From positions 4,417 through 68,416 of the forward strand of contig CAKPAW010000002.1 in assembly GCA_934133165.1 (NCBI GenBank): DNA of 64,000 bases, given 5' to 3'. The position numbers and the translations under genes are program-made. Below, piece after piece: positions 2,655-61,075 of the stretch (its first letter is position 1; each line of letters starts with the position of its first letter). The notes beneath the pieces were generated by a model, which had not been told where the DNA came from, searched no databases, and worked only from the letters and a program-made list of their open reading frames with translations. This stretch comes from an uncultured Clostridia bacterium (lineage in GTDB: Bacteria > Bacillota > Clostridia > TANB77 > CAG-508).

Positions 2655-2712
2655 TTTTAGGGACAGGTCTCAAAATTTAAAAAATTAAATTTTTAAGCCC
2701 GTCCCTAAAATT
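2655..2712 (+). terminator. hairpin terminator after holA (tttagggacagg...cccgtccctaaaattt)
   Basis: inverted repeat 'tagggacagg'/'cccgtcccta' followed by T-rich run; shares the 'gggacag' core with the dispersed mini-repeat. Confidence 0.45.
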
Positions 2713-20418: not shown

Positions 20419-20872
20419 TTGGCATTGTCTTTATCATTTTCAATAGGCATATATTTTTTTATGTACTATTTTGTATCTTTAAATATTCAATTTTATTTCC
20501 AATTGCTCTTTCATCTTCAAAATATCCAAGATAGTGAAATCTATTTTTTACTTTAATTAAGCATTCAATATTTTCTTCTAGTGCTTTGGCAATATTCTCT
20601 ATAATATATTCTTCTTTTTTAGATTTTGATTCTTCTTTAAATTTTGGAATTTTAATCTCATATCCTACAATTAAATTTCTAATATATTCAGATTGTGATA
20701 TGTTTAAGTTGGAAGAATTATTTTTTAAAACAAATTTTTCATCATCACTTAAAAATACATTAACTTTATTATTTCTTATTCTCATAAATTTCAAAGCTCC
20801 TTTTTTAAATATTAAGGGTATGGGAATTCCCATAATAGAATTTGTATGGGAGTACAAATTCAGTGCTGGCTA
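20404..20872. repeat. direct repeat R1 (~470 bp; copy of 25285-25757) carrying a MobC-like gene and palindromes
   Basis: starts with 11-bp-stem hairpin AAAGACAATGC-TTAATTG-GCATTGTCTTT; contains 16-bp palindrome TATGGGAATTCCCATA (20819-20834) and hairpin GAATTTGTA(T/C)GGGAGTACAAATTC (20838-20861). Confidence 0.75.
20459..20785 (-). CDS. MobC-family ribbon-helix-helix protein (mobilisation accessory protein-like), copy 1
   Basis: 'MRIRNNKVNVFLSDDEKFVLK...LNISQSEYIRNLIVG' matches the MobC pattern (vRlt.eE...S.SeylR); true start likely MRIRNN (ORF-track start at 20857 reads through the upstream palindrome). Confidence 0.6.
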   Translation of the reverse strand: MRIRNNKVNVFLSDDEKFVLKNNSSNLNISQSEYIRNLIVGYEIKIPKFKEESKSKKEEYIIENIAKALEENIECLIKVKNRFHYLGYFEDERAIGNKIEYLKIQNST

Positions 20873-20878
20873 TACATA

Positions 20879-20902
20879 ATATGTGAGTATGTACTCACAT
20901 AT
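20879..20902. terminator. perfect palindrome ATATGTGAGTA-TG-TACTCACATAT overlapping the tnpV-like stop
   Basis: 11-bp arms; unique to R1 flank. Confidence 0.5.
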
Positions 20903-21257
20903 TTTCATTATAAATTAACTCTTTTAATATAATTTCTTCTGCTATATTTTTATAATTATTCATAAGTTTTGCCCACTCAATAGGGTTATTATCTTTATTT
21001 TTTTCAGTCAGTTTTTCATCACTTTTTATATAATTATGCATTAGAGTATTTAATAAATCTTCCGAATTTTTACTTACTGAAATAAGATAATTAGTAAGTT
21101 CTTCTTTCATTAAAAGTGAAGTATATAGTGCTTTTTTATACTCCTTTAAATATGCTAGTCTCGTTCTTCCATATTTGTTTATATTTCCTTTTTTAGTTTC
21201 TTTTAAAGTTAAATCTGGTAATAAATAATCTCCATGTTTTGTATAAGTTATTTCCAT
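20895..21257 (-). CDS. TnpV-family transposon protein (as in Tn4451-like elements)
   Basis: 120 aa; 'GDYLLPDLTL...YGRTRLAYLKEYKKALYTSLL...WAKLMNN...AEEIILKELIY' matches the TnpV pattern; directly downstream of the serine recombinase. Confidence 0.55.
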   Translation of the reverse strand: MEITYTKHGDYLLPDLTLKETKKGNINKYGRTRLAYLKEYKKALYTSLLMKEELTNYLISVSKNSEDLLNTLMHNYIKSDEKLTEKNKDNNPIEWAKLMNNYKNIAEEIILKELIYNENM

Positions 21258-21284
21258 AATTAAATCATTCCTTTCTTATTTTTA

Positions 21285-23069: not shown

Positions 23070-23156
23070 AGTTTTCCTCCTTTCATTAAATTTCGAGAAA
23101 TATTAAAATACCTCTCATATGTTTCCTCACAAATAGGCAAAATGTATAGTCTAAAA

Positions 23157-23435
23157 TTAAAATTTTTTCAAAAATTGTGTAATTTCTTTAATATTATACT
23201 TTTGATTATGCTCTTTAATATAAAAAGTCTTATTTGATATTTCATTAACTTTGTATTCAAGTATTGTAAGAGTAGTAGGATATGTAATTTGGTATTCAGT
23301 AGGTATTACTACTTGTAGATTGGTGTGCAATATAGTTTTAATCTGTCCTAATATAACCTTATATTTAAAGTTTTTTAAGATGTTGGTTAAATCTTTATTA
23401 GGTTTTAGATTTTCAATTACTTTAAATTCAAGCAT
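23157..23435 (-). CDS. hypothetical protein (92 aa) upstream of the recombinase
   Basis: ORF only; no family recognised. Confidence 0.3.
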   Translation of the reverse strand: MLEFKVIENLKPNKDLTNILKNFKYKVILGQIKTILHTNLQVVIPTEYQITYPTTLTILEYKVNEISNKTFYIKEHNQKYNIKEITQFLKKF

Positions 23436-23477
23436 GAAAAAAGTCCTCTTTTCTGTGATAAGAGAACTTTTAAAGTT

Positions 23478-23534
23478 TTATATAAAATAAAAACTTACGA
23501 ACAATTAAGTCCGTAAGTTGATTTCAAATGGAGC
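23478..23534. repeat. 57-bp direct repeat DR1 (copy of 25843-25899, 1 mismatch); contains a terminator hairpin and ends 'tggagc'
   Basis: 'ttatataaaataaaaacttacga(a/g)caattaagtccgtaagttgatttcaaatggagc'. Confidence 0.75.
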
Positions 23535-23697
23535 CTTAACTATACATGTTTACGAAATTAAGACTATAAGATTTGATTAAATCTCTCTGATAGATTTATT
23601 ATATCATTTTATTAGATATTTTCAAGGGAGTATAGAAAAAAATGTCTAAATATAGTATAATTTATTTGCAAGAAAATAATATGTGGAGTAGATTAAG

Positions 23698-25299
23698 ATG
23701 AAAAAAAACAACATTAATTTTATATTTGGATTATTAGACAGGAAAAAAGTTGCTTTATGCTTGTTTATTGAGGCCTTTTTAGATTTTATTTACTACGTTA
23801 TTCCTTATACTTTTGCTCTTTTTTTAACAATGCCTTTTACTATTGAAAAAGCAGTAATTGTTGCTTCGATATTTATTGCTTCTAAATCAGTTAGATGTTT
23901 TGTGTTATATTTAGAGAGAAAAGTTATGGATAATTATTTATATGATTACTCTAATGTTCAATATTTAGAATACTACAAAAAATTAACTAAAGTGCCTGTA
24001 GAAACTTTATCTAAGTACCAAACAGGATATTTAGAGAATATAATAGAAAAGATATCTGAGTTAGTTAAAAAGATTCTTAGTGCAGAATATATAGGAATAT
24101 TATTATCTTTTGGATTTTTCTTTCTTACTGTATTTCAACAATCAAAAATTTTATTTGTAACATCGTTAGTATTAAGTATTTTATGTGTTATGATAAGTGT
24201 ATACATATTAAAAAAATCAAATAAACATGTTGAAGATTTATATGATAAAGAATATGAGTATTCATCTGTATATCAAGACTTTATTAGTAATATTAGAACT
24301 GTTAAAGCATTAAATGATGACAAATATTTTGAAAAAATTATATCAAAAGAAGGAAACGAATGTTATAAAAAACAAAACAAGTATGTTAAATGCTATTCAT
24401 TAGAAGAATTAATAAGAAATATTTTAATAGTGATACCATTTGCATTAGCAATTATAAAGGCAGTTATAGATTTATCTAATGGAATTGATACACTAGGAAT
24501 AATTACATTTTATATATCTATTTATTTAGAAATGGGATTTATATTTGATGAATTATCTGGAACAATTGTTAGTGGATTTGAATTAAAAGCATTAAAGAAA
24601 AAATGTATTCAATTATTTAGTAAATTAGATGAAAGAGAATTATTAACTAATTTTAATAAAATAGAATTATCAAATATAGATTTAAAATATAAAGAATCTA
24701 ATTTTAATATTAAAGTTGATAATATGGTAATAAAAAATAAAGATAAAATTTCAATAACTGGGAAGTCTGGTCAAGGAAAAACATCTATAATCAACTTGAT
24801 TTTAGGAAATATAACTACTTATAAAGGAAATGCTAAAATAGATGAAAATAATATGAGAGATTATAGACTTGACATAGGAGTTGTAAGTCAAGAAATAGAA
24901 TTATTTAATATGACTATAAAAGAAAATTTATGTTTAGATAAGAGTATTTCAGATGAAAAAATAATAAATTATTTAAAAGAATTAGAACTAGATGAAATTC
25001 TAATGTTTGAAGATGGAATATATACCATAGTTGGTGAAAAAGGATTAAAACTTTCAACTGGTCAAAAAAGAAGAATAAATATTTTAAGAAGTTATCTAAT
25101 GGAAAAAGATGTTTATATTTTAGATGAGCCTACATCTAATTTAGATAAACATACTGAAGAAATTGTAGTGGATTTTATATTAAAACACTTTAAAGATAAA
25201 ACATTAATAATTGCTACACATAATGAAAAAATAAATGAAATATGTAATAAGTTTTATCACTTTGATAACCATAAATTATTATTAAAAGACAATGCTTAG
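23698..25299 (+). CDS. ABC transporter, fused permease/ATP-binding (exporter type)
   Basis: 533 aa; 6 N-terminal TM helices; Walker A 'GKSGQGKTS', signature 'LSTGQKRR', Walker B 'VYILDEPTSNLD'; last 12 nt plus stop lie inside repeat R2 ('KDNA*'). Confidence 0.75.
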   Translation: MKKNNINFIFGLLDRKKVALCLFIEAFLDFIYYVIPYTFALFLTMPFTIEKAVIVASIFIASKSVRCFVLYLERKVMDNYLYDYSNVQYLEYYKKLTKVPVETLSKYQTGYLENIIEKISELVKKILSAEYIGILLSFGFFFLTVFQQSKILFVTSLVLSILCVMISVYILKKSNKHVEDLYDKEYEYSSVYQDFISNIRTVKALNDDKYFEKIISKEGNECYKKQNKYVKCYSLEELIRNILIVIPFALAIIKAVIDLSNGIDTLGIITFYISIYLEMGFIFDELSGTIVSGFELKALKKKCIQLFSKLDERELLTNFNKIELSNIDLKYKESNFNIKVDNMVIKNKDKISITGKSGQGKTSIINLILGNITTYKGNAKIDENNMRDYRLDIGVVSQEIELFNMTIKENLCLDKSISDEKIINYLKELELDEILMFEDGIYTIVGEKGLKLSTGQKRRINILRSYLMEKDVYILDEPTSNLDKHTEEIVVDFILKHFKDKTLIIATHNEKINEICNKFYHFDNHKLLLKDNA

Positions 25300-25757
25300 T
25301 TGGCATTGTCTTTATAATTTTCAATATGAGGTATATATTTTTTTAGCGTATTATTTTGTGTATTTAAAAATTCGATTTTAGTTCCAATTGCTTGTTCATC
25401 TTCAAAATATCCAAGATGATGAAATTTATTTTTTACTTTGATTAAGCAATTAATATTTTCTTCTAGTGCTTTAACAATATTTTCTATAATATATTCATCT
25501 TTTTTAGGTTTTTGTTCTTCTTTGACTTCTGGAATTTTAATCTCATATCCTATAATTAAATTTCTAATATATTCAGACTGAGATAAGTTTAATTTTGAAG
25601 AATCTCTTTTTAAAATAAACTTCTCATCATCACTTAAAAATACATTAACTTTATTATTTCTTATTCTCATAATTTGAAATCTCCTTTCTAAAAATTTAAG
25701 GGTATGGGAATTCCCATATACGAATTTGTACGGGAGTACAAATTCAGTGCTGGCTAG
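25285..25757. repeat. direct repeat R2 (~470 bp; copy of 20404-20872)
   Basis: same hairpin (25285-25313), MobC-like gene, palindrome TATGGGAATTCCCATA (25703-25718), hairpin GAATTTGTACGGGAGTACAAATTC (25722-25745). Confidence 0.75.
25296..25670 (-). CDS. MobC-family ribbon-helix-helix protein, copy 2
   Basis: 124 aa 'MRIRNNKVNVFLSDDEKFILKRDSSKLNLSQSEYIRNLIIG...'; ~80% identical to copy 1. Confidence 0.6.
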   Translation of the reverse strand: MRIRNNKVNVFLSDDEKFILKRDSSKLNLSQSEYIRNLIIGYEIKIPEVKEEQKPKKDEYIIENIVKALEENINCLIKVKNKFHHLGYFEDEQAIGTKIEFLNTQNNTLKKYIPHIENYKDNAN

Positions 25758-25842
25758 TCATAGATTTTATTCCCATATTCAAAAAAACAAAAAAAGAGGA
25801 TTAAATTATTTTGATAATTTTTTTGCTCTTTTTGAAGATTAT

Positions 25843-25893
25843 TTATATAAAATAAAAACTTACGAGCAATTAAGTCCGTAAGTTGATTTCAAA

Positions 25894-25899
<6 letters not shown>
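25843..25899. repeat. 57-bp direct repeat DR2 overlapping the last 6 nt of tRNA-Gly and its 3' terminator hairpin
   Basis: see DR1. Confidence 0.75.
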
Positions 25900-25967
<68 letters not shown>

Positions 25968-26296
25968 AAATGTAACTAAACATATTATATAACATATAAA
26001 AGATACTTTCAAGTAAAAAATAACAAAAATGACTTGCCAAAATAAAAAACAAATGGTAAAATGAATAAAAATTTAAAGGGGAGTAGCTTATAAACTACTA
26101 ATCAACACCTCGGCAGAAAATGCATGGTTAGTAACCTTTAAGGTAAGCAAGACTTTTAAAGAAAGGAGTACATGTAAATGTAGTGTTTTCTTTAGGAGTC
26201 TTATTTTTTATATTCTAGAAAAGACTTTTAAGAAGAGATAGAGGATTTTAAGAAAAAATAGACTATTAAACAAAAAAATGGAAAAAATAAAATTAG

Positions 26297-26328
26297 ATGA
26301 CGCAAAAGGAAACGTCCCTTTTGTGCCA
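26297..26328. repeat. mini-repeat copy A (gatgacgcaaaaggaaacgtcccttttgtgcc) in the 5' leader of the Ca-ATPase gene
   Basis: shares 'gatgacgcaaaa-gaaacgtcc' with copy D and 'ggaaacgtccc' with copies B2/E. Confidence 0.65.
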
Positions 26329-26345
26329 AAAAGGAGAAATGAAAA

Positions 26346-29963: not shown

Positions 29964-29992
29964 TTGACATTGCTAATAAAAGAGTATATAAT
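29964..29992 (+). promoter_or_regulatory. sigma-A type promoter (TTGACA-17-TATAAT) driving the tandem-repeat RNA region
   Basis: perfect hexamers, 17-bp spacer. Confidence 0.55.
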
Positions 29993-30046
29993 GAATATAC
30001 TAATAGAGATAGTAATTTAAACTATCATAGATGTGCTGACATCTTA

Positions 30047-30150
30047 AAAAATCCGAAACACCTGTAAGACGAATGTGCTTACCGTTGGCGGACAACAGAA
30101 AAATCCGAAACACTTGTAAGACGAATGTGCTTACCGTTGACGGACAACAG
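30047..30150 (+). repeat. two tandem 52-nt repeats (aaaaatccgaaacac(c/t)tgtaagacgaatgtgcttaccgttg(g/a)cggacaacag); candidate structured ncRNA or leader
   Basis: 2 mismatches between units; each unit has internal stem 'gtaag...cttac'; followed by a hairpin plus T7 run at ~30164-30207. Confidence 0.7.
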
Positions 30151-30280
30151 AAAAATCAGTAATAAAAATATAGGGCTTATAATTTTTTATAGGCTCTATA
30201 TTTTTTTATTATATTTAAATAAAGAATATAAAAAACAATAGCAATTTATAAAATATATTGCTATAATAAAGGAGGTAAAA

Positions 30281-30673: not shown

Positions 30674-31633
30674 GTGGCAAATAGGGGCAAAAAAACTAAA
30701 CGTATAGAATTTATAATAGGGCTTATTATTTTCATATTGATTGCAATATTAAGTGAAAGTGGAATCATACCAATAGGAAAAATCTTTAATAGTGAAAATA
30801 GCGAAGTTTTAGATAGTAACGAAATTTCAAAAAGAGTTACAGCAGAAGAAAGTGAAAATGTAACATTAGAAGGAGAAGACATATTGCAAATACACTTTTT
30901 TGATGTAGGGCAAGCAGATAGCACATTAATAATAAGTGACAATAAAACTATGCTAATAGATGCTGGAACTAATGAAATGGGCTCAAAAGTAGTAGCAAAT
31001 ATAAAAAAACTGGGAATAGAAAAAATAGACTATCTTATAGGAACTCATCCACACGAAGATCATATTGGTGGGTTAGATGATGTAATTAAAAATTTTGAAA
31101 TAGGAACAATATATATGCCTAAAATACAAACGAATACAAAAACTTTTGAAGATGTATTAGATGCAATAACAGAAAAAAACTTGACTGTTACTACTCCAAA
31201 AGAAGGCGATAAATTTGAATTAGGAAAAGCAGAATGTGAAATAATGCTTTGTGGAACTGGAACAAAAGAAGAAAAAGAAAATTTAAATTTATCTTCAATA
31301 GTAACAAAAGTAACATATGGAAAACAAAGCTATTTATTTATGGGTGATAGCGAAAAAGAAAATGAACAATCTAGAACTTGGCCAAAAGTTAATGTACTAA
31401 AAGTAGGACATCATGGTTCAAATACAAGCTCTTCAAAGGAATTTTTAGATCAAGTATTACCACAAATAGCAATAATAAGTGTGGGAAAAGACAATAGTTA
31501 CGGGCATCCAAAACAAGTAATATTAGACAGATTAAATAAAATAGGGGCAGTAATTTATACAACTAAAGATAAAGGAAATATATTAATAGAAAGTGACGGA
31601 AACAATAACAAAGTTTCTTTCTATAGAAGATAA
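30674..31633 (+). CDS. ComEC/Rec2-related MBL-fold metallo-hydrolase with N-terminal TM anchor
   Basis: 'HPHEDHIGG' HxHxDH motif, 'VGHHGS'; GTG start with RBS 'aggggg'. Confidence 0.7.
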   Translation: MANRGKKTKRIEFIIGLIIFILIAILSESGIIPIGKIFNSENSEVLDSNEISKRVTAEESENVTLEGEDILQIHFFDVGQADSTLIISDNKTMLIDAGTNEMGSKVVANIKKLGIEKIDYLIGTHPHEDHIGGLDDVIKNFEIGTIYMPKIQTNTKTFEDVLDAITEKNLTVTTPKEGDKFELGKAECEIMLCGTGTKEEKENLNLSSIVTKVTYGKQSYLFMGDSEKENEQSRTWPKVNVLKVGHHGSNTSSSKEFLDQVLPQIAIISVGKDNSYGHPKQVILDRLNKIGAVIYTTKDKGNILIESDGNNNKVSFYRR

Positions 31634-31689
31634 ATATGGCAGAAATTAGATTTTGTAGCAGTTTGCACTGCGTACAAAATCTTGATTCT
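31634..31689. repeat. intergenic repeat family 2, copy 1 (atatggcagaaattagattttgtagcagtttgcactgcgtacaaaatcttgattct)
   Basis: reverse-complement copy at 55623-55677 (~4 mismatches); internal hairpin tttgtagcagt-ttgc-actgcgtacaaa. Confidence 0.7.
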
Positions 31690-31723
31690 GGTCTTTTACT
31701 AAAATAGAACAGAAAGGCGAAAA

Positions 31724-32488
31724 ATGGACAATAGAAAAATAGGAGTTTTTGATTCTGGAATAGGTGGATTAACAGTATTAAGTAAAATAATAGAGTTGTT
31801 ACCAAACGAAGAATACATATATTATGCAGATACAGAAAATGTACCATACGGAACAAAACCAAAAGAAGAAGTAAAAAAATATGTGAGAAAAGCTGTAGAG
31901 TTCTTGATTTCAAAAGATGTAAAAGCAATTGTAATAGCTTGTAACACAGCAACGAGCATAGCAATAAATGAGTTAAGAAATACATATAACATGCCAATAA
32001 TAGGAATAGAGCCAGCAGTAAAGCCAGCAATAGAAAATAAAGGAAAGAAAAAAGTACTAGTAATGGCAACACCAACAACTATAAGAGAAGAAAAATTACA
32101 TAATTTAATAGAAAAATTTGAGGCTAAAGAATATGTAGATTTAATTCCTATGCCTAAATTGGTGGAATTTGCAGAAAAAAGAGAATTTAAATCAGAAAAA
32201 GTAGAAAAATATATAAAGGAAGAATTAAAAATATATAATTTGGAAAACTATTCTGAACTAGTATTAGGATGTACACATTTTCCATTCTTTAAAGAAACAT
32301 TAACAAAAATATTTCCTAAAGAAACCAAGATTATAGATGGAAGTTTAGGAGTGGCAAATAGATTAAAAAATGTATTAAAAGAGAACAATATGCTAGCAAA
32401 TAATACATTAAAAATTGAATATTATTACTCAGGAAAGTTAGTAAAAGATGACAAAAACTTAAATGAATTATTACAAATGACAAAGTAG
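31724..32488 (+). CDS. murI: glutamate racemase
   Basis: 'IGVFDSGIGGLTV', 'ACNTAT', 'LGCTHFP' motifs. Confidence 0.85.
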   Translation: MDNRKIGVFDSGIGGLTVLSKIIELLPNEEYIYYADTENVPYGTKPKEEVKKYVRKAVEFLISKDVKAIVIACNTATSIAINELRNTYNMPIIGIEPAVKPAIENKGKKKVLVMATPTTIREEKLHNLIEKFEAKEYVDLIPMPKLVEFAEKREFKSEKVEKYIKEELKIYNLENYSELVLGCTHFPFFKETLTKIFPKETKIIDGSLGVANRLKNVLKENNMLANNTLKIEYYYSGKLVKDDKNLNELLQMTK

Positions 32489-32631
32489 CAGTTAGGTACA
32501 ATCCTAATTACTACTTTTTCTCAATTTGAGACAAAGTTTAAAGTGATATTAAGCCAAAGACTATAGTAGTCTTGTTTTTTTTACAAAAATGTAATATAAT
32601 TTGGGTGAAATTTATATAGGGAGAAATTAAC

Positions 32632-35600
32632 GTGGGAAATTTTGTACACTTACATATACATAGTGAATTTAGTTTATTAGATGGAGCAAACAGAATAAAA
32701 GATATACCAGTAATTGCAAAAGAACTTGGAATGGATGCAATTGCTATTACTGACCATGGAGCAATGTTTGGAGTTATAGATTTTTATAAAGCATGTAAAG
32801 CAAACGGAGTAAAACCAATAATAGGTTGTGAAGTATATGTAGCACCACGAACAAGACATGACAAAGATCCTAAATTAGATAGTAAATATAATCATTTAAT
32901 ATTACTTGCAAAAGACATGACAGGTTATAGGAACTTATCAAAATTAGTATCGTTAAGTTATACAGAAGGTTTTTATTATAAACCAAGAATAGATAAAGAA
33001 ATATTAGAAAAATATCATGAAGGATTAGTATGCTCTAGTGCTTGTTTAGCAGGAGAGATAAGCCAAGCAATACTTGCAAATGATATGGAAGAAGCAAAAA
33101 AAGCAGCATTATGGTTTAAAAATTTATTTGGAGAAGATTATTATTTAGAAATACAAAATAATGGTGTGAAAGAGCAAGTATTAGTTAATCAAAAACTAAT
33201 AGAACTTTCAAAAGAATTAAACATACCATTAGTTGCCACAAATGATGCACACTATTCAAGAAGAGAAGACGCATACAATCATGAAGTACTTTTATGTATT
33301 CAAACAGGAAAGAAAATGTCAGACGAAGACAGGATGAGATTTGACACAGACGAGCTTTATATAAAATCACCAGAAGAAATGAGTGATTATTTTTCAAATG
33401 TACCAGAAGCAATAGAAAATACAGTAAAAATAGCAGAAAAATGTAATATTGAATTTGAATTTGGACATACAATTCTGCCAAATTACGATGTACCAGAAGG
33501 ATATGCAACACATTACGACTACATAGAAGACTTAACAAAAAAAGGTTTAATAAAGAGATATGGGACAAAAGGGACAGATTCACCATTAGGGACGTTTCCT
33601 AATGGAGCGGGTGAAGAAAAAAATAAAAAAATAGAGTTACCAAAAGGGACAGATTCACCTTTAAGAAACGTCCCTAATGGTAATGGTAGCTATGAAGAGT
33701 TGCCAGAAGAGATTAGAAAAAGAGCAGAATATGAATTAGGTGTTATTAAGAAAATGGGATATGTAGACTATTTCTTGATAGTATGGGATTATATAAATTA
33801 TGCTAAAACACATGATATTCCAGTAGGACCAGGTCGTGGTTCTGGTGCAGGTTCTATTGTTGCATATGCAATAGGAATAACAGATATAGATCCTATAAAA
33901 TATAATCTACTTTTTGAAAGATTTTTAAATCCTGAAAGAATTAGTATGCCCGATTTTGACGTTGACTTTTGTTATGAAAAAAGAGATAAAGTAATAGAAT
34001 ATGTTTGTAAAAAATACGGTTATGACCATGTATCACAAATTATAACATTTGGTACAATGTCAGCAAGAATGGTAATCCGTGATGTAGCAAGAGTTCTAGA
34101 TGTACCATATGCAGAAGCAGATAAACTTGCTAAAATGATACCAAATGAAATACATATTACAATTAAAAAGGCATTAGAGCAAAATAAAGAGTTAAATACA
34201 CTTTATGAAACAGATACAGAAATTAAGAAACTATTAGATATAGCAATGGCATTAGAAGGAATGCCACGTCAGGCTTCAACACACGCATGTGGAATAGTTA
34301 TAACAAAAGATCCAGTAGATACTTATGTTCCTTTATATGTAAGAGATGGCAATATTTCTACACAATATATAATGACTACACTAGAAGAACTTGGACTTTT
34401 AAAAATGGACTTTTTAGGTTTAAGAACATTAACAGTTATAAAAGATACCATAGATTTAGTAAAAAAAGACAAAGGCATAGATGTAGAATTTGACAAAAAT
34501 ATGAATGACCCTAAAGTCTATAAATTATGGCAAGAGGGAAATTCTGTTGGAATATTCCAGTTTGAATCACAAGGAATGACAAACTTTATGAGAGAGTTAA
34601 AGCCAGATAGCTTAGAAGATATAATAGCAGGGGTGTCACTTTACAGACCTGGACCAATGGATCAAATTCCAAGATACATAGCAAACAAAAAAGACCCTGA
34701 ACATGCAGTATACACACATCCTGCATTAAAGCCAATACTAGAGGTTACTTATGGTTGTATGGTATACCAAGAGCAAGTTATGCAAATAGTAAGAGATTTA
34801 GCAGGATACTCATTAGGTAGAGCAGATTTAGTTCGTCGTGCTATGGGTAAGAAAAAGCTAGATGTAATGGCAAAAGAAAGAGAAATATTTATAAATGGCC
34901 AAGTAGATGAAAATGGTAATGTTGTAGTTCCTGGATGTGTAAGAAACGGAATAGATGAAAAAAGTGCAAATAAAATATTTGATGAAATGGCTGAATTTGC
35001 TAAATATGCCTTCAACAAATCACATGCCGCAGCATATGCAGTCGTATCATATCAAACAGCATATTTAAAAGCATATTATCCAGAAGAATTTATGGCAGCA
35101 ACTTTAAACAGCTTTTTAGGAAACTTGGATAAAGTCCCATATTATATAGAAGAATGTAAAAGACTAAAAATAGACATATTAAAGCCAGACATAAATAAAA
35201 GTGAAACAAAATTTACAGTTGATAATGGCAAAATACGTTTTGGATTAGGGAGTATAAAAAACGTAGGAGTCGCAGCAGTGAATACAGTTGTAGAAGAAAG
35301 ACAAAAAAATGGCAAATACAAGTCATTTACAGATTTCTGTGAAAGAATTCAGGCAGAAGCGGTAAATAAAAAATGTATAGAAAGTTTAATAAAATCTGGA
35401 GCATTTGATGAATTTGAACAAACAAGAAGTACATTAATGGCATCATTTGAAGACATAATAGATGCAATTTCAGATAGTTCAAGAAAAAACATAAAAGGTC
35501 AAGTATCAATGTTTGATTTAGGTGGATTAGGTGGAAGCGAAAGTTCATCTGAAGAAGACGAAAAACAACTTGAAAAATTAAAATATTCATATACAACACT

Positions 35601-36339
35601 TAAAGAATACACAGATAAAGAGCTTTTATCAATGGAAAAAGAAATGCTAGGAATATATATATCAGGACATCCTTTATCAGAATTAAAAGAAATTATTGAA
35701 AAAAATACAAATATAAGCACATTAAAAATAAGAGAAGGATTAGAAGAACTAGCACAAACAGGAAAATTTCCGTACAAAGATGGACAAATAGTAAAGTTCA
35801 TAGGAATAATAAATTCAATAAAGAAAAAGTACACAAAAAATAACAAAATAATGGCTTTTGTTACACTAGAAGATTTGTATGGAAGTATGGAAACAGTAGT
35901 ATTTGAGAATGTATATACACAATCAGCAAATAGTTTAATAGAAGACAATATAGTGCTAGTAGAAGGACGACTAAGCATTAGAGAAGACGAAGAAAGCGTA
36001 AGCATAGTAGCCAGCAAAATACAAAATGTTGACGCAAAAGGGACGTTTCCTAATGCGTCATCTGTCCCTTTTGCTTCATCACTTGCTGGTACAAAAAATG
36101 AAGGATTAAGAAGAATAAATAAGCTAGAAATAGATATTACCAATTTAAGCGAAGAAATGAAAGATAAATTGAGAGGAGCACTTAAATTCTTTGCAGGAGA
36201 CAGAAACAATACAACATTATTTATATTAAATGGAGAAAGCAAATTACCTGCAGGAGGAATTTTCTTAAATGGAAACACTTTAAATGAAATAGAAGAAATA
36301 GTAGGAAAAGAAAATATCTTAACAGAGGATAGTCACTAA
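32632..36339 (+). CDS. dnaE: DNA polymerase III alpha subunit (DnaE type)
   Basis: 1235 aa; PHP domain 'FVHLHIHSEFSLLDGA', polymerase core, OB fold; GTG start with RBS 'agggag'; carries in-frame mini-repeat insertions. Confidence 0.9.
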   Translation: MGNFVHLHIHSEFSLLDGANRIKDIPVIAKELGMDAIAITDHGAMFGVIDFYKACKANGVKPIIGCEVYVAPRTRHDKDPKLDSKYNHLILLAKDMTGYRNLSKLVSLSYTEGFYYKPRIDKEILEKYHEGLVCSSACLAGEISQAILANDMEEAKKAALWFKNLFGEDYYLEIQNNGVKEQVLVNQKLIELSKELNIPLVATNDAHYSRREDAYNHEVLLCIQTGKKMSDEDRMRFDTDELYIKSPEEMSDYFSNVPEAIENTVKIAEKCNIEFEFGHTILPNYDVPEGYATHYDYIEDLTKKGLIKRYGTKGTDSPLGTFPNGAGEEKNKKIELPKGTDSPLRNVPNGNGSYEELPEEIRKRAEYELGVIKKMGYVDYFLIVWDYINYAKTHDIPVGPGRGSGAGSIVAYAIGITDIDPIKYNLLFERFLNPERISMPDFDVDFCYEKRDKVIEYVCKKYGYDHVSQIITFGTMSARMVIRDVARVLDVPYAEADKLAKMIPNEIHITIKKALEQNKELNTLYETDTEIKKLLDIAMALEGMPRQASTHACGIVITKDPVDTYVPLYVRDGNISTQYIMTTLEELGLLKMDFLGLRTLTVIKDTIDLVKKDKGIDVEFDKNMNDPKVYKLWQEGNSVGIFQFESQGMTNFMRELKPDSLEDIIAGVSLYRPGPMDQIPRYIANKKDPEHAVYTHPALKPILEVTYGCMVYQEQVMQIVRDLAGYSLGRADLVRRAMGKKKLDVMAKEREIFINGQVDENGNVVVPGCVRNGIDEKSANKIFDEMAEFAKYAFNKSHAAAYAVVSYQTAYLKAYYPEEFMAATLNSFLGNLDKVPYYIEECKRLKIDILKPDINKSETKFTVDNGKIRFGLGSIKNVGVAAVNTVVEERQKNGKYKSFTDFCERIQAEAVNKKCIESLIKSGAFDEFEQTRSTLMASFEDIIDAISDSSRKNIKGQVSMFDLGGLGGSESSSEEDEKQLEKLKYSYTTLKEYTDKELLSMEKEMLGIYISGHPLSELKEIIEKNTNISTLKIREGLEELAQTGKFPYKDGQIVKFIGIINSIKKKYTKNNKIMAFVTLEDLYGSMETVVFENVYTQSANSLIEDNIVLVEGRLSIREDEESVSIVASKIQNVDAKGTFPNASSVPFASSLAGTKNEGLRRINKLEIDITNLSEEMKDKLRGALKFFAGDRNNTTLFILNGESKLPAGGIFLNGNTLNEIEEIVGKENILTEDSH
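33566..33605 (+). repeat. mini-repeat copy B1 inside dnaE (caaaagggacagattcaccattagggacgtttcctaatgg), in frame, encoding KGTDSPLGTFPNG
   Basis: seen directly; core in 'gggacgtttcc' orientation. Confidence 0.7.
33641..33680 (+). repeat. mini-repeat copy B2 inside dnaE (caaaagggacagattcacctttaagaaacgtccctaatgg), in frame, encoding KGTDSPLRNVPNG
   Basis: core inverted relative to B1 ('gaaacgtccc'). Confidence 0.7.
36031..36075 (+). repeat. mini-repeat copy C inside the dnaE 3' region (gacgcaaaagggacgtttcctaatgcgtcatctgtcccttttgc)
   Basis: 10-bp inverted repeat caaaagggac/gtcccttttg; encodes DAKGTFPNASSVPFAS. Confidence 0.65.
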
Positions 36340-36386
36340 TTAGGAAAATGTCATAGTGTGATATAGTTTAAAAAAATAAAAATTGA

Positions 36387-36433
36387 CACAAAAGGGACAG
36401 ATGACGCAAAATGAAACGTCCATTTTGCGTCAG
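36387..36433 (+). repeat. mini-repeat copy D between dnaE and the HD-CYTH gene (cacaaaagggacagatgacgcaaaatgaaacgtccattttgcgtcag)
   Basis: internal inverted repeat tgacgcaaaatg/cattttgcgtca. Confidence 0.65.
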
Positions 36434-36448
36434 AAAAGGATGTTGAAA

Positions 36449-38653
36449 ATGAATGAAAAATTAGTAATAAATGATGAAATACATGGAGATATTGAATTAG
36501 ATGGAGTGTACAAAGAATTAGTAGAATCAAAAGATTTTCAAAGACTAAAAGACATAATCCAAACTGGTACATCTTACTTAAAATATCCAGATATGAAGTA
36601 TGAAACTAGATTTGACCACAGCATTGGATCTTATTATTTAATTTGTAAAATTATAGAAAGTATAGAAAAAAAGCTAAATGCACAAGGAATAAAAATAAGA
36701 GATGATGAAAAGGAGATTGCTAAAATTGCAATGCTTCTTCATGATGTTGGTCATGGTGCATATTCACATACTTTGGAAAAAATAACAGGGTATTCCCATG
36801 AAAAGAGAAGTATTGATATTGTAAAAGATGAAAATACTGAAATACATCAAATTTTGAAAAAATATTATGGGGAAGAGTTTACAACAAAGGTAGGAAAATT
36901 TTTAGAAAAAGTATATGAATACAAAAAAGAAGATAAAAAACAAAATGGTATTAAAATAAAAAATAATAGAGTAAGTTTGAAAGATTTATTAGCATCTTTT
37001 GTTTCTAATAATATTGATGCAGATAGATTAGATTATTTAGTTAGAGATTCTCAAAAAGCAGGTTACAAGATACTAACAGAAGTTGATAAATTAATAGATA
37101 GTTTTGAATTTGTTTTAGATGTAGATAAAATTATTGTGGCAATACCAGAAGAAAAGAAAATATTTTTAGATATGGCAATATTAGAAAGGTCTAGAAATTA
37201 TAAAGAAATATATTTTTGTGAACCATCTGTAATAGGAGACCATGTTCTAGATTTCTTGTTAGAAGAAATTAGAAATAATAAAGATGAAATACCAAAGGAA
37301 GTAAATCCTATATTGTATAAATTTTTAACTAATAAAAAAGCAGATTTTACAACTGAAGAATATATGCAAATAGTTGAAACTCCAATGAGAGAAACTTTGG
37401 AAAGCATAAGAGACAATTCTACAAATGAAAAGCTAAAAGAATTGTGTGACATAGCAAACTTCACTAAGACATATCAAACATTAAATACAGATAAAAATGA
37501 ACAATATATTCGTTATTTACTACATAAAGCTATTCCAGAAATATCTGAACAAACTGATGGAATTATAGAAGAAACAAGATGTGTAAAGCCATATAAATCA
37601 AACGAACATGAAAATATAAATATTATTACATGTAATGGAATAGAAGATTATAAAGATATAGAGCAAAATTTAATTAAGTTAGAACCATTTTATGTAAGAA
37701 CAGTTGCAGTTAGTAAAGAAATGCTTAGATTAGAATTAGGAATATCTAAAGAAGAATTTAAAGAAAAATATGAAAAAATAGTAGATGAAGTAATTAGTAC
37801 AGTTATAAAATCTAAAGATGAATTTGAACTTAGATATGTTTTAACAAAAGGAATAACATATGGTGAAGAGATAAAAGAAAAAATAGAACAAAAATATGAA
37901 ATAATAGATGAAGCTAAATATATGTCAAAAGATATGTATTATGATAATCCTGAAAATTATGAATTGTTAGAAGGTAAAAAGACTTTAAGAGTAAGAAAAG
38001 GGGCAACATTTCATAAAAGAGAAGAAACATATGGATTTAAAAAGACAAGAGCAACATATAAAACTTACAAAAAAGATGATCAAGATGGTTATACAGTTAG
38101 AAGAAAAGAAGAACAAATAGGTGAAGATGATCAGTTAAGTACATATACAAATTTCTTAAATGAAATGAAAATAAATATAGAAGACTTAAAACCTATGTTA
38201 GAAGTAAATAACTTACGTTATTTGTTTACAGTAAATGTAAATGGAGTATTAGTAGATATATCATTTAATACAGCACATTATATAAATCAAGTACATGAAA
38301 TGTTTGGAACCATTGGAACAATAGAAATTAAACCAAGAGACAATAAAGTATATGATAGACTAAGCTTACTAGAGTTAAGACAATACTTAGAAGAGCAGAT
38401 TCCAGAACTAGAAAAATATTTATCTAACACAAATGTATATGAAATAGGAATGTTAGATACATATGAAAAGTATAAAAAAGGTTATATAATAAGTGAAGAA
38501 GTTAAGGAAGATGAAGAAAATCATAAAGAAGCAACAGAAAAATTAGATGAAATTTTAGAAAAGGCTAAAAATAGAAAAGATTTTGCATGGCTAAATGAAA
38601 TTCCAGAAGTAAAGCAAGAAAATAGACCAACATACCAAGGAGAAGAAATATAA
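36449..38653 (+). CDS. HD-domain (dGTPase/SAMHD1-like) phosphohydrolase fused to a C-terminal CYTH-like (triphosphate tunnel) domain
   Basis: 'RFDHSIGSYYL...LLHDVGHGAYSH' HD motifs; C-terminal 'LRVRKG...YTVRRKEE...GTIEIKPRD' has a CYTH-like charged beta-strand pattern; start at MNEKLVINDEIHG (ORF-track start 36383 would translate repeat copy D). Confidence 0.55.
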   Translation: MNEKLVINDEIHGDIELDGVYKELVESKDFQRLKDIIQTGTSYLKYPDMKYETRFDHSIGSYYLICKIIESIEKKLNAQGIKIRDDEKEIAKIAMLLHDVGHGAYSHTLEKITGYSHEKRSIDIVKDENTEIHQILKKYYGEEFTTKVGKFLEKVYEYKKEDKKQNGIKIKNNRVSLKDLLASFVSNNIDADRLDYLVRDSQKAGYKILTEVDKLIDSFEFVLDVDKIIVAIPEEKKIFLDMAILERSRNYKEIYFCEPSVIGDHVLDFLLEEIRNNKDEIPKEVNPILYKFLTNKKADFTTEEYMQIVETPMRETLESIRDNSTNEKLKELCDIANFTKTYQTLNTDKNEQYIRYLLHKAIPEISEQTDGIIEETRCVKPYKSNEHENINIITCNGIEDYKDIEQNLIKLEPFYVRTVAVSKEMLRLELGISKEEFKEKYEKIVDEVISTVIKSKDEFELRYVLTKGITYGEEIKEKIEQKYEIIDEAKYMSKDMYYDNPENYELLEGKKTLRVRKGATFHKREETYGFKKTRATYKTYKKDDQDGYTVRRKEEQIGEDDQLSTYTNFLNEMKINIEDLKPMLEVNNLRYLFTVNVNGVLVDISFNTAHYINQVHEMFGTIGTIEIKPRDNKVYDRLSLLELRQYLEEQIPELEKYLSNTNVYEIGMLDTYEKYKKGYIISEEVKEDEENHKEATEKLDEILEKAKNRKDFAWLNEIPEVKQENRPTYQGEEI

Positions 38654-49088: not shown

Positions 49089-50363
<1,275 letters not shown>

Positions 50364-50462
50364 AGGACATTTGGGGACGGGTCACTTTTGTCCTTTGTGT
50401 AATTTAGATAGAATAAAATAAAAACATATCAATTTTTATTGATATGTTTTTTATCTATTTAA

Positions 50463-55677: not shown

Positions 55678-55689
55678 TTATCTTCTACA

Positions 55690-60253: not shown

Positions 60254-61075
60254 ATGTCAAAAAATGAAAAGTACAATGAACAAAGAATGCAAAAAAAGAA
60301 ACAAAATAACCAAAAGGGACAGATTAACCAAAAGGAAACGTCCCCAAAGGAGCAGGTAGAAGGAAGAAATGCTGTTTTAGAATTACTGGAGTCTGGAAAA
60401 GATATAAATAAAATATACATAGAATCTGGTGAAAAAACTGGATCAATAAATAAAATAATAGCATTAGCAAAAGAAAATAAAGTATTAATAAGCTACATAG
60501 ATAAAAACAAAATGAGGCAAATGGCAATAACAGAAAACTATCAGGGAGTAATAGCAGTTGTACCACCTTATGAATATGTAGAAGTAGAAGATATATTACA
60601 AGAGGCAAAAGACAAAAATGAAGATCCTTTTGTTGTAATATTGGACGGAATAGAAGATATTCATAATTTGGGAGCAATAATAAGAACAGCAGAAACTGCT
60701 GGAGTGCATGGAATAATAATTCCTAAGAGGAGAGCAGCATCTGTAAATGCTACAGTAAATAAAGTGTCTGCAGGGGCTGTAGAACATATGAAAATAGCAA
60801 GAGTAAATAATTTAAATGAAACAATAAAAGAACTAAAAGAATCAGGACTTTGGATTTGTGGTACAGACATGGATACAGAAACTTATTATTATAATCAAGA
60901 TTTAAAAGGGCCACTTGCAATAGTAATTGGAAGTGAGGGCTTTGGAATGAGCAGACTTGTAAAAGAAAATTGTGACTTTATAGTAAAAATTCCTATGAAA
61001 GGTAAAATAACATCTTTAAATGCTTCAGTATCAGCAGGAATAGTTATATATGAAGCAGTAAAACAAAGAAATTAA
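60254..61075 (+). CDS. rlmB: 23S rRNA 2'-O-methyltransferase, TrmH/SpoU family (RlmB-like) with N-terminal basic extension containing mini-repeat copy E
   Basis: SpoU substrate-binding 'EGRNAVLELLESGKDINKIYI', methylase motifs 'ILDGIEDIHNLGAIIRTA', 'GSEGFGMS'. Confidence 0.8.
   Translation: MSKNEKYNEQRMQKKKQNNQKGQINQKETSPKEQVEGRNAVLELLESGKDINKIYIESGEKTGSINKIIALAKENKVLISYIDKNKMRQMAITENYQGVIAVVPPYEYVEVEDILQEAKDKNEDPFVVILDGIEDIHNLGAIIRTAETAGVHGIIIPKRRAASVNATVNKVSAGAVEHMKIARVNNLNETIKELKESGLWICGTDMDTETYYYNQDLKGPLAIVIGSEGFGMSRLVKENCDFIVKIPMKGKITSLNASVSAGIVIYEAVKQRN
60311..60350 (+). repeat. mini-repeat copy E inside the rlmB N-terminal coding region (caaaagggacagattaaccaaaaggaaacgtccccaaagg), encoding KGQINQKETSPKE
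   Basis: seen directly. Confidence 0.65.

What the first reader, a model, noticed from the sequence alone, without database searches (positions are those of the whole stretch)
33566..33680. Dispersed palindromic mini-repeat inserted in-frame into dnaE, twice in tandem (RPE-like element)
Two ~40-bp units lie 35 bp apart inside the dnaE reading frame between the PHP domain and the polymerase core. They are caaaagggacagattcacc-attag-ggacgtttcc-taatgg and caaaagggacagattcacc-tttaa-gaaacgtccc-taatgg, with the core inverted between the two. Together they add ~45 residues (KGTDSPLGTFPNG...KGTDSPLRNVPNG) without breaking the frame. Related copies occur at 36031-36075 (dnaE 3' region), 36387-36433 (intergenic), 26297-26328 (5' leader of the Ca-ATPase gene) and 60311-60350 (rlmB N-terminus). 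The terminators at 2655-2712 and 50363-50397 also share the 'gggacag/gggacgg' core. Every copy lying inside a gene preserves the frame, as Rickettsia palindromic elements (RPEs) do when they colonise protein-coding sequences. I am not aware of such an element being described for clostridia-like genomes. An insertion into an essential replicative polymerase is striking.
Basis: seen in the sequence. Interest (0 to 1): 0.78.

Follow-up and report, generated by a model that had tools for sequence, protein, structure and literature searches.

The report
REP-type palindromic repeats inside dnaE
The two 40-base units inside the replicative polymerase gene are real copies of a dispersed hairpin repeat (a REP/REPIN-type element whose likely partner transposase, a RAYT, lies in related genomes), translated in frame in what looks like a disordered loop; this is a new family in uncultured gut Clostridia, but a known kind of element.

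Summary
The window (27% G+C, about 97% identical to uncultured Clostridium sp. UMGS1612) holds six copies of a ~50-nt palindromic element. Two lie 30 nt apart in dnaE (aa 312-351), one in the dnaE 3' part, one in an RlmB-like N-terminus and two in front of genes.

The pattern AAGGGACAGAT-N11-AAACGTCC hit more than 103 8-kb blocks in 19 MAG species of gut Clostridia. The dnaE site carries 0, 1 or 2 units in alleles 93-97% identical. RlmB orthologues of 82-86% identity lack the segment. About a quarter of copies are intragenic, in several frames and on both strands.

The element works like a REP. Relatives carry a Y1/HUH transposase whose best sequence and fold match is E. coli TnpA-REP (4ER8). 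It sits directly upstream of radA in seven loci and is flanked by inverted GGGAC-core palindromes in all nine complete loci. Head-to-head doublets are common, no target-site duplication is seen, and each genome has its own sequence tag.

Intragenic REPs, including one in Rickettsia conorii dnaE, are already published (PMC3733652). I found no such system described for Firmicutes. Verdict: a real new REP/RAYT family in a new lineage, of moderate interest.

The parts
32632..36339 (+). dnaE (DNA polymerase III alpha, 1235 aa), host gene of three copies
   Evidence: ORF. Pfam domains: PHP 6-176, DNA_pol3_alpha 355-596, finger 599-760, HHH_6 846-935, OB 1054-1132. Aligns to Taq Pol III alpha 2HPI over residues 3-1150.
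33565..33606 (+). Unit A (aa 312-325): 5' module CAAAAGGGACAGAT-TCACC, then a hairpin CCATTAGG-GACGTTT-CCTAATGG whose loop is flipped
   Evidence: nhmmer hits 33565-33590(+) and 33580-33606(-). DNA fold -6.9 kcal/mol, z -3.2.
33607..33636 (+). A-rich spacer between units A and B (encodes AGEEKNKKIE)
   Evidence: Absent from the one-unit allele L062 and the no-unit alleles L105/L106.
33637..33683 (+). Unit B (aa 336-351): full long-type copy, loop AAACGTC
   Evidence: nhmmer E 3e-14. DNA fold -9.9 kcal/mol, z -4.0. A and B together fold to -19.95 kcal/mol, z -5.5.
36030..36078 (-). Copy D in the dnaE 3' part (aa 1134-1149, just after the OB fold), opposite orientation, encodes DAKGTFPNASSVPFAS
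   Evidence: nhmmer E 2.5e-13. Fold -12.9 kcal/mol, z -5.4. L105 carries a decayed version at the same place.
36384..36432 (+). Copy E, intergenic, ending just before the SD/start of the HD-domain gene (start about 36449)
   Evidence: Fold -12.6 kcal/mol, z -5.3. The same site is occupied in L012 by a copy carrying a different tag.
26295..26329 (+). Copy F, partial (inner hairpin only), just 5' of the SD of the P-type ATPase gene
   Evidence: Fold -6.2 kcal/mol, z -2.9.
60307..60352 (+). Copy C in the N-terminal extension of the SpoU/RlmB-like methyltransferase, in a different frame (QKGQINQKETSPKE), with a decayed 3' arm
   Evidence: Fold z only -1.9. Orthologue alignment.
32484..32516 (.). 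Decayed copy of the related short hairpin type (X-CAATTRGGGAC-N-GTCCCYAATTG-X'), upstream of dnaE
   Evidence: Intact at the same place in L026 (UMGS1612) and L001.
2655..2712 (.). Inverted doublet of another dispersed palindrome family (AAATTTTTAAGSCCGTCCCTAAAATTT) sharing the GGGAC(A/G)G core
   Evidence: Matches in L079, L098, L016, L055, L102 and L035. Fold -18.5 kcal/mol, z -7.9.
50362..50397 (+). Member of a further dispersed family (AAAGGACAWTTGGGGACGGGTCACTTTTGTCCTTT)
   Evidence: Matches in L055, L079 (two) and L102. Weak fold, z -2.1.

Best explanation
The units are copies of a non-autonomous palindromic repeat of the REP/REPIN kind. Its anatomy is X1-CAAAAGGGAC-AGAT-X2-C-WWWW-GG-AAAC-GTCCC-YAATG-X'. 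X is a 5-nt tag that occurs twice directly and once inverted, so the single strand can form an outer or an inner hairpin. Related genomes encode one RAYT-type tyrosine (Y1/HUH) transposase. It sits directly upstream of radA and is flanked by inverted copies of these repeats, an arrangement called a 'REPtron'. Inferred mechanism, by homology with E. coli TnpA-REP and IS200/IS605: the RAYT binds the hairpin on single-stranded DNA, then cuts and rejoins it, spreading copies without target-site duplication. Selection then removes disruptive insertions. Survivors sit in intergenic spacers or, for about a quarter of copies, in permissive protein segments where the element reads through without a stop codon. 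In dnaE, two copies (or one copy that was duplicated) occupy what appears to be a disordered linker just before the polymerase core, and an older copy follows the OB fold. They are most likely neutral passengers. The flipped loop of unit A is a hairpin-loop inversion.

Shown here: the family, its distribution, presence/absence across orthologues, RAYT identity and its flanking by the repeats.
Inferred: that the RAYT mobilises the repeats, and that the dnaE inserts are neutral.
For: Family and spread:
- 120 distinct copies share the anatomy above.

Structure:
- Outer helix: 73% of cells paired, against 65% in shuffles and 42% or less when slid; covariation 0.174 against 0.069.
- Inner helix: 64.6% against 56.5%; covariation 0.201 against 0.096.

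Mobility signatures:
- The dnaE site carries 0, 1 or 2 units in close alleles.
- RlmB orthologues with and without the segment exist, and a 98%-identical RlmB differs by QK->LL inside the element-encoded peptide.
- Each genome has its own tag subfamily, even at orthologous sites.
- Mosaic forms and head-to-head doublets are common.
- No target-site duplication was detected.

Coding copies: 31 of 122 classified copies are intragenic, on both strands and in four frames.

RAYT:
- ORFs L033:3494-4261 and L010:2796-3587 match Pfam Y1_Tnp at 52 and 50 bits (cut-off 23). Their best NCBIfam hit is 'REP-associated tyrosine transposase' at 74 bits, against 20 bits for IS200.
- The HUH histidines and the Tyr-x-His-x-Asn-Pro motif are invariant.
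- The only PDB hit of the sequence profile is 4ER8 TnpA-REP.
- The AlphaFold model (pLDDT 89) has 4ER8_A as top fold match, E 1.8e-6, TM 0.72. IS200/IS608 structures score about 100-fold weaker.
- RAYT genes turned up in 7 of the 103 repeat-selected blocks, against about 0.5 expected (P about 1e-6).
- GGGAC-core palindromes in inverted orientation flank the gene in all nine complete loci (L033, L010, L051, L071, L089, L108-L111). The two cut loci (L009, L093) show one at the visible end.
- The RAYT sits directly upstream of radA in seven loci (L033, L051, L071, L108-L111).

dnaE loop:
- Residues 313-350 have pLDDT 25-33 and no secondary structure, between helices 294-310 and 359-375.
- Alignments to the E. 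coli and M. tuberculosis structures break at query residues 274-359.
Against: - No RAYT lies in the window, and none was seen for the window's own species.
- In the nearest relatives (UMGS1663 L071, and L108) the RAYT is flanked by the short hairpin type, not the long type found in dnaE. Only L033, L010, L009 and L111 show long-type flanks.
- The NCBIfam score is below the curated cut-off (74 < 80).
- The comparison of filled and empty dnaE sites is not a clean insertion. CAAAAG and AATG are shared by the empty allele, so polarity rests on the unit-free alleles P0002, P0003 and more distant orthologues.
- Whether A and B arose as two insertions, one doublet or a 75-nt tandem duplication is unresolved.
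- Copy number per genome and RAYT copy number could not be measured.
- The DnaE model is of modest overall quality (mean pLDDT 64.5).
- Nothing was tested experimentally.
Confidence: 0.78

Rival explanations
1. The elements are classical MITEs: deletion derivatives of a DDE-type insertion sequence, mobilised in trans through their terminal inverted repeats.
For: The outer arms (ATG-X1-CAAAAGGGAC ... GTCCC-YAATG-X'-CAT) look like ~16-nt terminal inverted repeats. The size (~50 nt) and the subfamily structure resemble MITEs.
Against: No target-site duplication: the best 3-mer signal is 14 of 134 copies against 5 expected, with no consistent register. No IS with matching ends was seen in about 770 kb of flanking DNA. 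The only transposase physically tied to the repeats is a Y1/HUH RAYT.
Confidence: 0.05
2. The repeat is primarily a host cis-acting signal, for example an mRNA 5'/3' hairpin that controls stability or translation. It would be kept at specific genes by selection, and the coding copies would be by-products.
For: In unidirectional intergenic regions, same-strand copies end a median 18.5 nt before the next start codon, just 5' of the SD. Opposite-strand copies begin a median 2 nt after the upstream stop. The same genes (a ~790-aa MKLSTNFV protein, a SerS-like protein and others) carry a copy in front of the SD in up to five species. Pairing covaries.
Against: About 25% of copies lie inside ORFs on either strand. 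Tags are genome-specific rather than gene-specific. No Rfam family matches. No positional -10 box signal is seen upstream. The layout is also what head-to-head doublets filling short spacers would give. The RAYT linkage points to mobility. Co-option of some copies is not excluded.
Confidence: 0.1
3. The dnaE and RlmB segments are ancient, functionally conserved protein regions (a peptide motif such as KGTD/GTFPNG), not insertions.
For: Related peptides (PLGTFPNG, KGTD, GNVP, SVPF) recur at the same two DnaE sites in orthologues of 76-86% identity.
Against: Orthologues of 93% and 88% identity lack the site-1 units, and many others lack both. The same DNA occurs in non-coding DNA and in four reading frames on both strands, giving unrelated peptides. 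The region is predicted to be disordered. RlmB orthologues lack the segment.
Confidence: 0.02
4. The 'twice in tandem' arrangement arose locally, by a 75-nt tandem duplication of one inserted unit followed by loop inversion, rather than by two insertion events.
For: Both units share an identical 19-nt 5' module in the same orientation. The sequences after each unit look loosely alike on my own reading (GGAGCGGGTGAAGAA vs GGTAGCTATGAAGAG). UMGS1663 has a single unit with A's left flank and B's right flank.
Against: The one-unit allele can equally be a recombinational deletion between A and B. The A-rich spacer resembles the spacers of ordinary doublets (listing). The EKN codons of the empty allele may survive inside the spacer, which would suggest two insertions. 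Identity over the 69-nt period is only 62%.
Confidence: 0.35

Closest known systems
REP/REPIN elements with their RAYT transposase ('REPtron'; E. coli TnpA-REP 4ER8; Nunvar 2010 PMC2817692; Bertels 2017 PMC5581495; Di Nocera 2013 PMC3733652)
   Same: - Short imperfect palindromes dispersed in many copies.
- Inverted head-to-head doublets and mosaic clusters.
- Species-specific consensus sequences.
- A Y1/HUH transposase whose closest fold is TnpA-REP, flanked by the repeats in inverted orientation and held at one conserved chromosomal position.
- No target-site duplication.
- Occasional intragenic copies, including in DNA replication and repair genes.
   Different: - No terminal GTAG or CGTC tag. 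The constant core is GGGAC(A/G)G, and CGTC sits in the loop.
- The long type has a three-tag, two-hairpin architecture.
- About 25% of copies are intragenic.
- Intergenic copies abut the SD/start as often as the stop, whereas published REPs lie mainly near 3' ends.
- The RAYT is ~260 aa with a C-terminal helix-turn-helix region (E. coli: 165 aa).
- The host is a low-G+C Clostridia lineage, absent from the eight phyla listed in the 2013 survey.
Rickettsia palindromic elements (RPE-1 to RPE-8)
   Same: Palindromic repeats that persist inside ORFs in frame, adding surface or loop peptides to essential proteins. R. conorii dnaE carries one (PMC3733652). The host genomes are small and A+T-rich.
   Different: I saw no sequence resemblance to RPEs, and this was not formally tested. 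The host phylum is different. RPE-1 is longer (my own knowledge). No dedicated transposase is known for the RPE/CGTC repeats (PMC3733652), whereas here RAYT genes are flanked by the repeats.
IS200/IS605-family ends and their derived palindrome-associated elements
   Same: Hairpin-dependent recognition by a Y1/HUH enzyme is inferred, and there is no target-site duplication.
   Different: The transposase matches the IS200 NCBIfam model only weakly (about 20 bits) and TnpA-REP better. It occupies one conserved locus beside radA in seven loci, rather than appearing as dispersed IS copies. No tnpB was seen next to it in the called genes of L108-L111.

Membership tests
REP/REPIN-RAYT system (REPtron) | A RAYT: a Y1/HUH tyrosine transposase closer to TnpA-REP than to IS200/IS605 TnpA | tested here: met
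   Pfam Y1_Tnp 52 and 50 bits (cut-off 23). The best NCBIfam hit is REP_Tyr_transpos at 74 and 59.5 bits, below its cut-off of 80, against about 20 bits for IS200. The HUH histidines and catalytic Tyr motif are invariant. The sequence profile hits only 4ER8 in the PDB. Foldseek's top hit is 4ER8_A at E 1.8e-6, with IS200/IS608 about 100-fold weaker.
REP/REPIN-RAYT system (REPtron) | [quoted passage not shown] | tested here: met
   All nine complete loci (L033, L010, L051, L071, L089, L108-L111) carry GGGAC-core palindromes on both sides in inverted orientation. L009 and L093, cut by the locus end, show one at the visible end. This was not seen for the window's own genome, because no RAYT lies in the window.
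REP/REPIN-RAYT system (REPtron) | Short imperfect palindromes that are highly over-represented in the genome | tested here: inconclusive
Copy number per genome could not be counted because no whole genome was held.
REP/REPIN-RAYT system (REPtron) | Doublets in inverted orientation (REPINs) are a common arrangement | tested here: met
   About 28 loci show a (-) copy followed by a (+) copy 10-250 nt apart. (-) copies abut the upstream stop codon and (+) copies abut the downstream start.
REP/REPIN-RAYT system (REPtron) | Extragenic location | tested here: not met
   31 of 122 classified copies lie inside ORFs. Intragenic REPs are, however, documented exceptions in the literature (PMC3733652).
REP/REPIN-RAYT system (REPtron) | A conserved unpaired terminal tetranucleotide (GTAG or CGTC super-families) | tested here: not met
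   The consensus has no terminal GTAG. CGTC occurs only inside the loop (AAACGTCCC), and the short type lacks it. The family therefore lies outside the two tagged super-families.
REP/REPIN-RAYT system (REPtron) | RAYT present in one copy and vertically inherited | tested here: inconclusive
   The RAYT lies directly upstream of radA in seven loci, while RAYT identity ranges from 45 to 98%. Copy number per genome could not be tested. L010 and L089 sit in other contexts.
Rickettsia palindromic elements (RPE) | In-frame persistence inside ORFs of otherwise conserved proteins | tested here: met
   DnaE (three copies), RlmB-like and 28-31 other ORFs.
Rickettsia palindromic elements (RPE) | Sequence membership in an RPE family, or a Rickettsiales host | not tested
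   No RPE consensus sequence was available to compare. The host is a Clostridia MAG lineage, so membership is very unlikely. The resemblance is one of behaviour only.
MITE (DDE-transposase derived) | Target-site duplication flanking terminal inverted repeats, and a parent IS with the same ends | tested here: not met
   No direct-repeat signal at any register. No matching IS in the loci held. The serine-recombinase element at 20.4-25.9 kb of the window is unrelated.
Known structured RNA families (Rfam 15) | A covariance-model match | tested here: not met
   No hit at gathering score in the window. No hit at E<=1 over 33300-36600 apart from one chance lncRNA match elsewhere in that range.

The most novel reading that the evidence does not exclude
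This could be the first REPIN-RAYT system characterised in Firmicutes, run by a longer RAYT subgroup with a C-terminal helix-turn-helix region fixed beside radA. In this reading the variable 5-nt tag (X1 = X2 = reverse complement of X') is the specificity determinant, read by base pairing as in the IS608 guide/target system. That would explain why X2 is almost fixed within a genome while the outer tags vary from copy to copy yet stay complementary. It would also make the tag-transposase pair a naturally re-programmed single-strand DNA transposition system, one that additionally seeds loop insertions in essential proteins such as DnaE.
Probability: 0.12. Interest if true: 0.7.

Novelty: new member of a known kind. 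Interest (0 to 1): 0.45.

Why it matters
If the reading is right, REP/RAYT biology extends to a reduced-genome, uncultured gut Clostridia lineage, a phylum absent from the published REP surveys I could read. It also links the 'RPE-like' phenomenon of translated palindromes to a candidate transposase.

For annotation, it explains length variation and odd Gly/Pro/Thr-rich loop peptides in conserved proteins of these MAGs (DnaE, RlmB and many others). It also gives a strain-level marker, since the dnaE site carries 0, 1 or 2 units.

The family has three features that make it a useful comparative data set for asking how RAYTs recognise and spread REPs: genome-specific tags, a mix of short and long forms, and a RAYT at a fixed locus. 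It does not change what is known in principle, because intragenic REPs, including one in a dnaE gene, are already on record.

Tried and rejected
- **Promoter idea.** I tested whether the 5'-UTR copies start at a transcription start. A scan for -10-like hexamers upstream of 32 SD-proximal copies, against 101 others, gave no clear positional peak. I dropped the idea.
- **Target-site duplications.** I tested all registers with k = 3-6 and found none.
- **Rfam.** The whole window at gathering score, and 33300-36600 at E<=1, gave no relevant family.
- **Phage DNA similarity.** The dnaE units gave no match.
- **Single-sequence search of the RAYT against the PDB.** No hit. Only the profile search and the fold search found 4ER8.
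- **Mobile element at 20.4-25.9 kb as a possible source of the repeats.** It encodes a serine recombinase, TnpV and NikA-like proteins, and is unrelated.
- **Replication-strand bias, as expected for IS200/IS605-type insertion.** Intragenic copies are 17 same-strand against 14 opposite, so no bias is visible. The orientation rule in intergenic DNA is explained by head-to-head doublets.
- **Literature searches for REP, REPIN or RAYT in Firmicutes or Clostridia.** The only relevant statement found is that Group 1 RAYTs also occur in Clostridia, with low flanking 16-mer counts.
Full report
**1. The observation**

- AAAGGGACAGATTCACC occurs exactly at 33568 and 33643. With up to three mismatches the window has 4 matches against 0.13 expected.
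- The hairpin core GGGACGTTTCCTAATGG has 5 matches against 0.03 expected.
- Both units lie in a 1235-aa ORF (32632-36339) that is a DnaE-type Pol III alpha.
- A profile built from 120 copies finds six copies in the window and no more. They are A 33565-33606, B 33637-33683, D 36030-36078(-), E 36384-36431, F 26295-26326 (partial) and C 60307-60352.
- The window is 26.8% G+C. It is about 97% identical to uncultured Clostridium sp. UMGS1612 over 4.7 kb, and 94.6% to UMGS1663.

**2. It is a dispersed family**

It returned 103 8-kb blocks, all from uncultured gut Clostridia MAGs (rabbit, mouse, human) of 19 species.

The 120 distinct copies give this anatomy: (A)TG-X1-CAAAAGGGAC-AGAT-X2-C-WWWW-GG-AAAC-GTCCC-YAATG-X'-CA(T).
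- X is a 5-nt tag that appears twice directly (X1, X2) and once as the reverse complement (X').
- Two alternative hairpins follow from this: an outer one (X1...GGGAC with GTCCC...X') and an inner one (X2-CWWWWGG with CCWWWWG-X', loop AAACGTC).
- Both covary well above controls.
  - Outer helix: 73% paired against 65% in shuffles and 42% or less when slid; covariation 0.174 against 0.069.
  - Inner helix: 64.6% against 56.5%; covariation 0.201 against 0.096.
- As single-stranded DNA, the window copies B, D and E fold at -9.9 to -12.9 kcal/mol (z -4.0 to -5.4). The RlmB copy has decayed (z -1.9). A and B together can form a long hairpin of -19.95 kcal/mol (z -5.5).

The tag is genome-specific. 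It is GACGC in MGBC165436, ACCCC in SRR17684647_bin.47, GAGCYG in a Hadza MAG, ACTCC/GCTCC in Lapin-023 bin83, and TAACC plus GACGC in UMGS1612 and in the window.

Mosaic forms also occur: extra 5' modules in tandem, extra 3' modules, and an inverted 5' module on the 3' side, as in copy D.

**3. Insertion, not ancient protein sequence**

*DnaE site 1.* In an alignment of 37 orthologues, P0002 (93% identical) and P0003 (88%) lack the site-1 units, while P0001 (96%) has both. More distant orthologues carry other element-encoded peptides (PLGTFPNG, KGTD, GNVP) at the same two variable sites. At the DNA level the site is:
- empty in L105/L106;
- occupied by one unit in UMGS1663;
- occupied by two units in the window, UMGS1612 and GCA_977051115.

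The lengths are 143, 167 and 239-242 nt, so the inserts are multiples of three. The boundaries are not clean, because CAAAAG and AATG are also present in the empty allele. I therefore cannot tell whether A and B arose as two insertions, one doublet, or a 75-nt duplication.

*DnaE site 2 (copy D).* This copy is older: L105 keeps a decayed version.

*RlmB-like protein.* Many orthologues of 82-86% identity (248-257 aa) start directly at ...QVEGRN. Others carry QKGQI(N/S)(QK/LL/HL)ETS(P/Q). A 98%-identical protein differs by QK->LL inside the element-encoded peptide.

*All copies.* 31 of 122 classified copies are intragenic, where the crude coding fraction is 84%. They are on both strands (17 and 14) and in four frames, and they give unrelated peptides. 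This rules out a conserved protein motif.

*Where the dnaE copies sit in the protein.*
- Site 1 (aa 312-351) lies just before the DNA_pol3_alpha domain (355-596). Site 2 (aa 1134-1149) lies just after the OB fold (1054-1132).
- Alignments to the E. coli and M. tuberculosis structures break across query residues 274-359.
- An AlphaFold model of residues 1-640 has mean pLDDT of only 64.5. In it, residues 313-350 have pLDDT 25-33 and no secondary structure, between helices 294-310 and 359-375.

**4. What it is**

Between inverted copies in L033 and L010 lies a 255-263-aa ORF. Evidence on its identity:
- It matches Pfam Y1_Tnp at 52 and 50 bits (cut-off 23).
- Its best NCBIfam hit is 'REP-associated tyrosine transposase' at 74 bits. 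This is below the cut-off of 80, but the IS200 model gives only about 20 bits.
- The HUH histidines and the Y-x-H-x-N-P motif are invariant in 37 homologues.
- A profile of the family hits one PDB sequence only, 4ER8 TnpA-REP.
- An AlphaFold model of homologue P0121 (pLDDT 89) has 4ER8_A, 'REP associated tyrosine transposase bound to a REP hairpin', as its top fold match (E 1.8e-6, TM 0.72). IS200, IS608 and ISDra2 transposases follow about 100-fold weaker.

Evidence on its link to the repeats:
- Homologues occur in 7 of the 103 repeat-selected blocks, where about 0.5 would be expected for a single-copy gene (P about 1e-6; the genome size is assumed).
- In seven loci the gene sits directly upstream of radA. 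disA follows wherever genes were called.
- In all nine complete loci it is flanked by GGGAC-core palindromes in inverted orientation. These are either the long type found in dnaE (L033, L010, L111; also the cut locus L009), a short perfect hairpin X-CAATTRGGGAC-N-GTCCCYAATTG-X' (L051, L071, L108-L110; also the cut locus L093), or, in L089, a repeat type of its own.
- The long type is the short hairpin with an extra left arm. A decayed short-type copy lies upstream of dnaE in the window (32484-32516).

Other REP-like features:
- Head-to-head doublets are common (about 28 loci).
- In unidirectional spacers, (-) copies begin a median 2 nt after the upstream stop, and (+) copies end a median 18.5 nt before the next start.
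- No target-site duplication is detectable.

**5. Mechanism**

By homology (inferred, not shown here), the RAYT binds the hairpin on single-stranded DNA, then cleaves and rejoins it. Copies spread without duplication of the target. Selection keeps copies only in spacers and in permissive protein loops, where the element has open frames. The dnaE units are most likely neutral passengers. The flipped loop of unit A is a local inversion within the hairpin.

Main weaknesses:
- No RAYT was seen for the window's own species.
- The nearest relatives show short-type flanks around the RAYT.
- No genome-wide copy counts are available.
- No experiments were done.

**6. Comparison with what is known**

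Di Nocera et al. 2013 (PMC3733652) report the following.
- REP super-families occur in eight phyla. Firmicutes is not mentioned.
- Head-to-head dimers are common.
- Intragenic REPs are enriched in DNA synthesis and repair genes.
- A REP lies inside R. conorii dnaE.
- RPE-4 and RPE-6 are CGTC-tagged REPs.
- CGTC repeats lack a dedicated transposase.

Bertels et al. 2017 (PMC5581495) note Group 1 RAYTs in Clostridia, but with few flanking repeats.

The kind of element and the dnaE precedent are therefore known. What is new here:
- the family itself, which has no GTAG or CGTC terminal tag and a three-tag, two-hairpin build;
- its host lineage;
- the high intragenic share;
- the longer RAYT with a C-terminal helix-turn-helix region, sitting beside radA.

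**7. Rejected or unresolved**
- The classical MITE explanation is rejected: there is no target-site duplication and no parent IS.
- The known-RNA-family explanation is rejected.
- The promoter-at-5'-end idea found no support.
- A host cis-regulatory role for the SD-proximal copies is not excluded, but it is not needed to explain the data.

**8. Verdict**

This is a new member of a known kind, of moderate interest.

Noticed in passing
window 29966-30200: A strong sigma-70-like promoter (TTGACA-17-TATAAT) is followed by two tandem 52-nt units (30047-30098 and 30099-30150, 96% identical) and a T-rich hairpin. It looks like an unannotated small RNA gene with two repeated modules. There is no Rfam match, even at E<=1.
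   Followed up: partly
window 31617-31698 and 55613-55694: An 82-nt repeat, 93% identical, lies in inverted orientation in two intergenic regions. It contains the hairpin AGATTTTGTAGC...GCGTACAAAATCT. It is probably yet another dispersed element or a shared terminator or small RNA. The first arm has no Rfam match.
   Followed up: partly
window 20454-25974: An integrated mobilisable element. It encodes two NikA-like proteins (20459-20857-, 25296-25670-), TnpV (20895-21257-), a large serine recombinase (21285-23069-) and an ABC transporter (23698-25299+). It is bounded by 300-nt direct repeats (87% identical) and lies next to a tRNA gene (25897-25967-). It is unrelated to the hairpin repeats.
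   Followed up: partly
window 2655-2712 and 50362-50397; L079, L055, L102, L098, L016, L035: The two 'terminators' belong to two further dispersed palindrome families that share only the GGGAC(A/G)G core. The first is an inverted doublet. The lineage therefore holds at least four related hairpin families.
   Followed up: partly
L033, L051, L071, L108-L111: In these seven loci the RAYT gene sits directly upstream of radA, and disA follows wherever genes were called. A repeat copy lies in the radA leader just before its SD. RAYT identity ranges from 45 to 98%, while the upstream neighbour varies (GH15, Ham1-like or other genes).
   Followed up: partly
L103, L011, L034, L022, L025 (and other gene clusters): The same gene (a ~790-aa protein starting MKLSTNFV) carries a long-type copy 12-16 nt before its start codon in five species, each with that genome's own tag. 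This implies either concerted evolution or repeated insertion at the same spot. It remains unexplained.
   Followed up: partly
table (e.g. UMGS1612 loci L004, L038, L053, L097, L101): Within a genome the central tag X2 is almost invariant (for example TAACC). The outer tags X1 and X' differ from copy to copy yet tend to stay complementary to each other. This could reflect compensatory change or a guide/target-type recognition.
   Followed up: no
L107 6533-6543 (dnaE of P0003): A short-type hairpin (GTCGCAATTGGGGACAGTCCCCAATTGTGA) lies within the last codons of dnaE in this 88%-identical orthologue. The dnaE 3' end and the following spacer are therefore a recurrent landing place.
   Followed up: no
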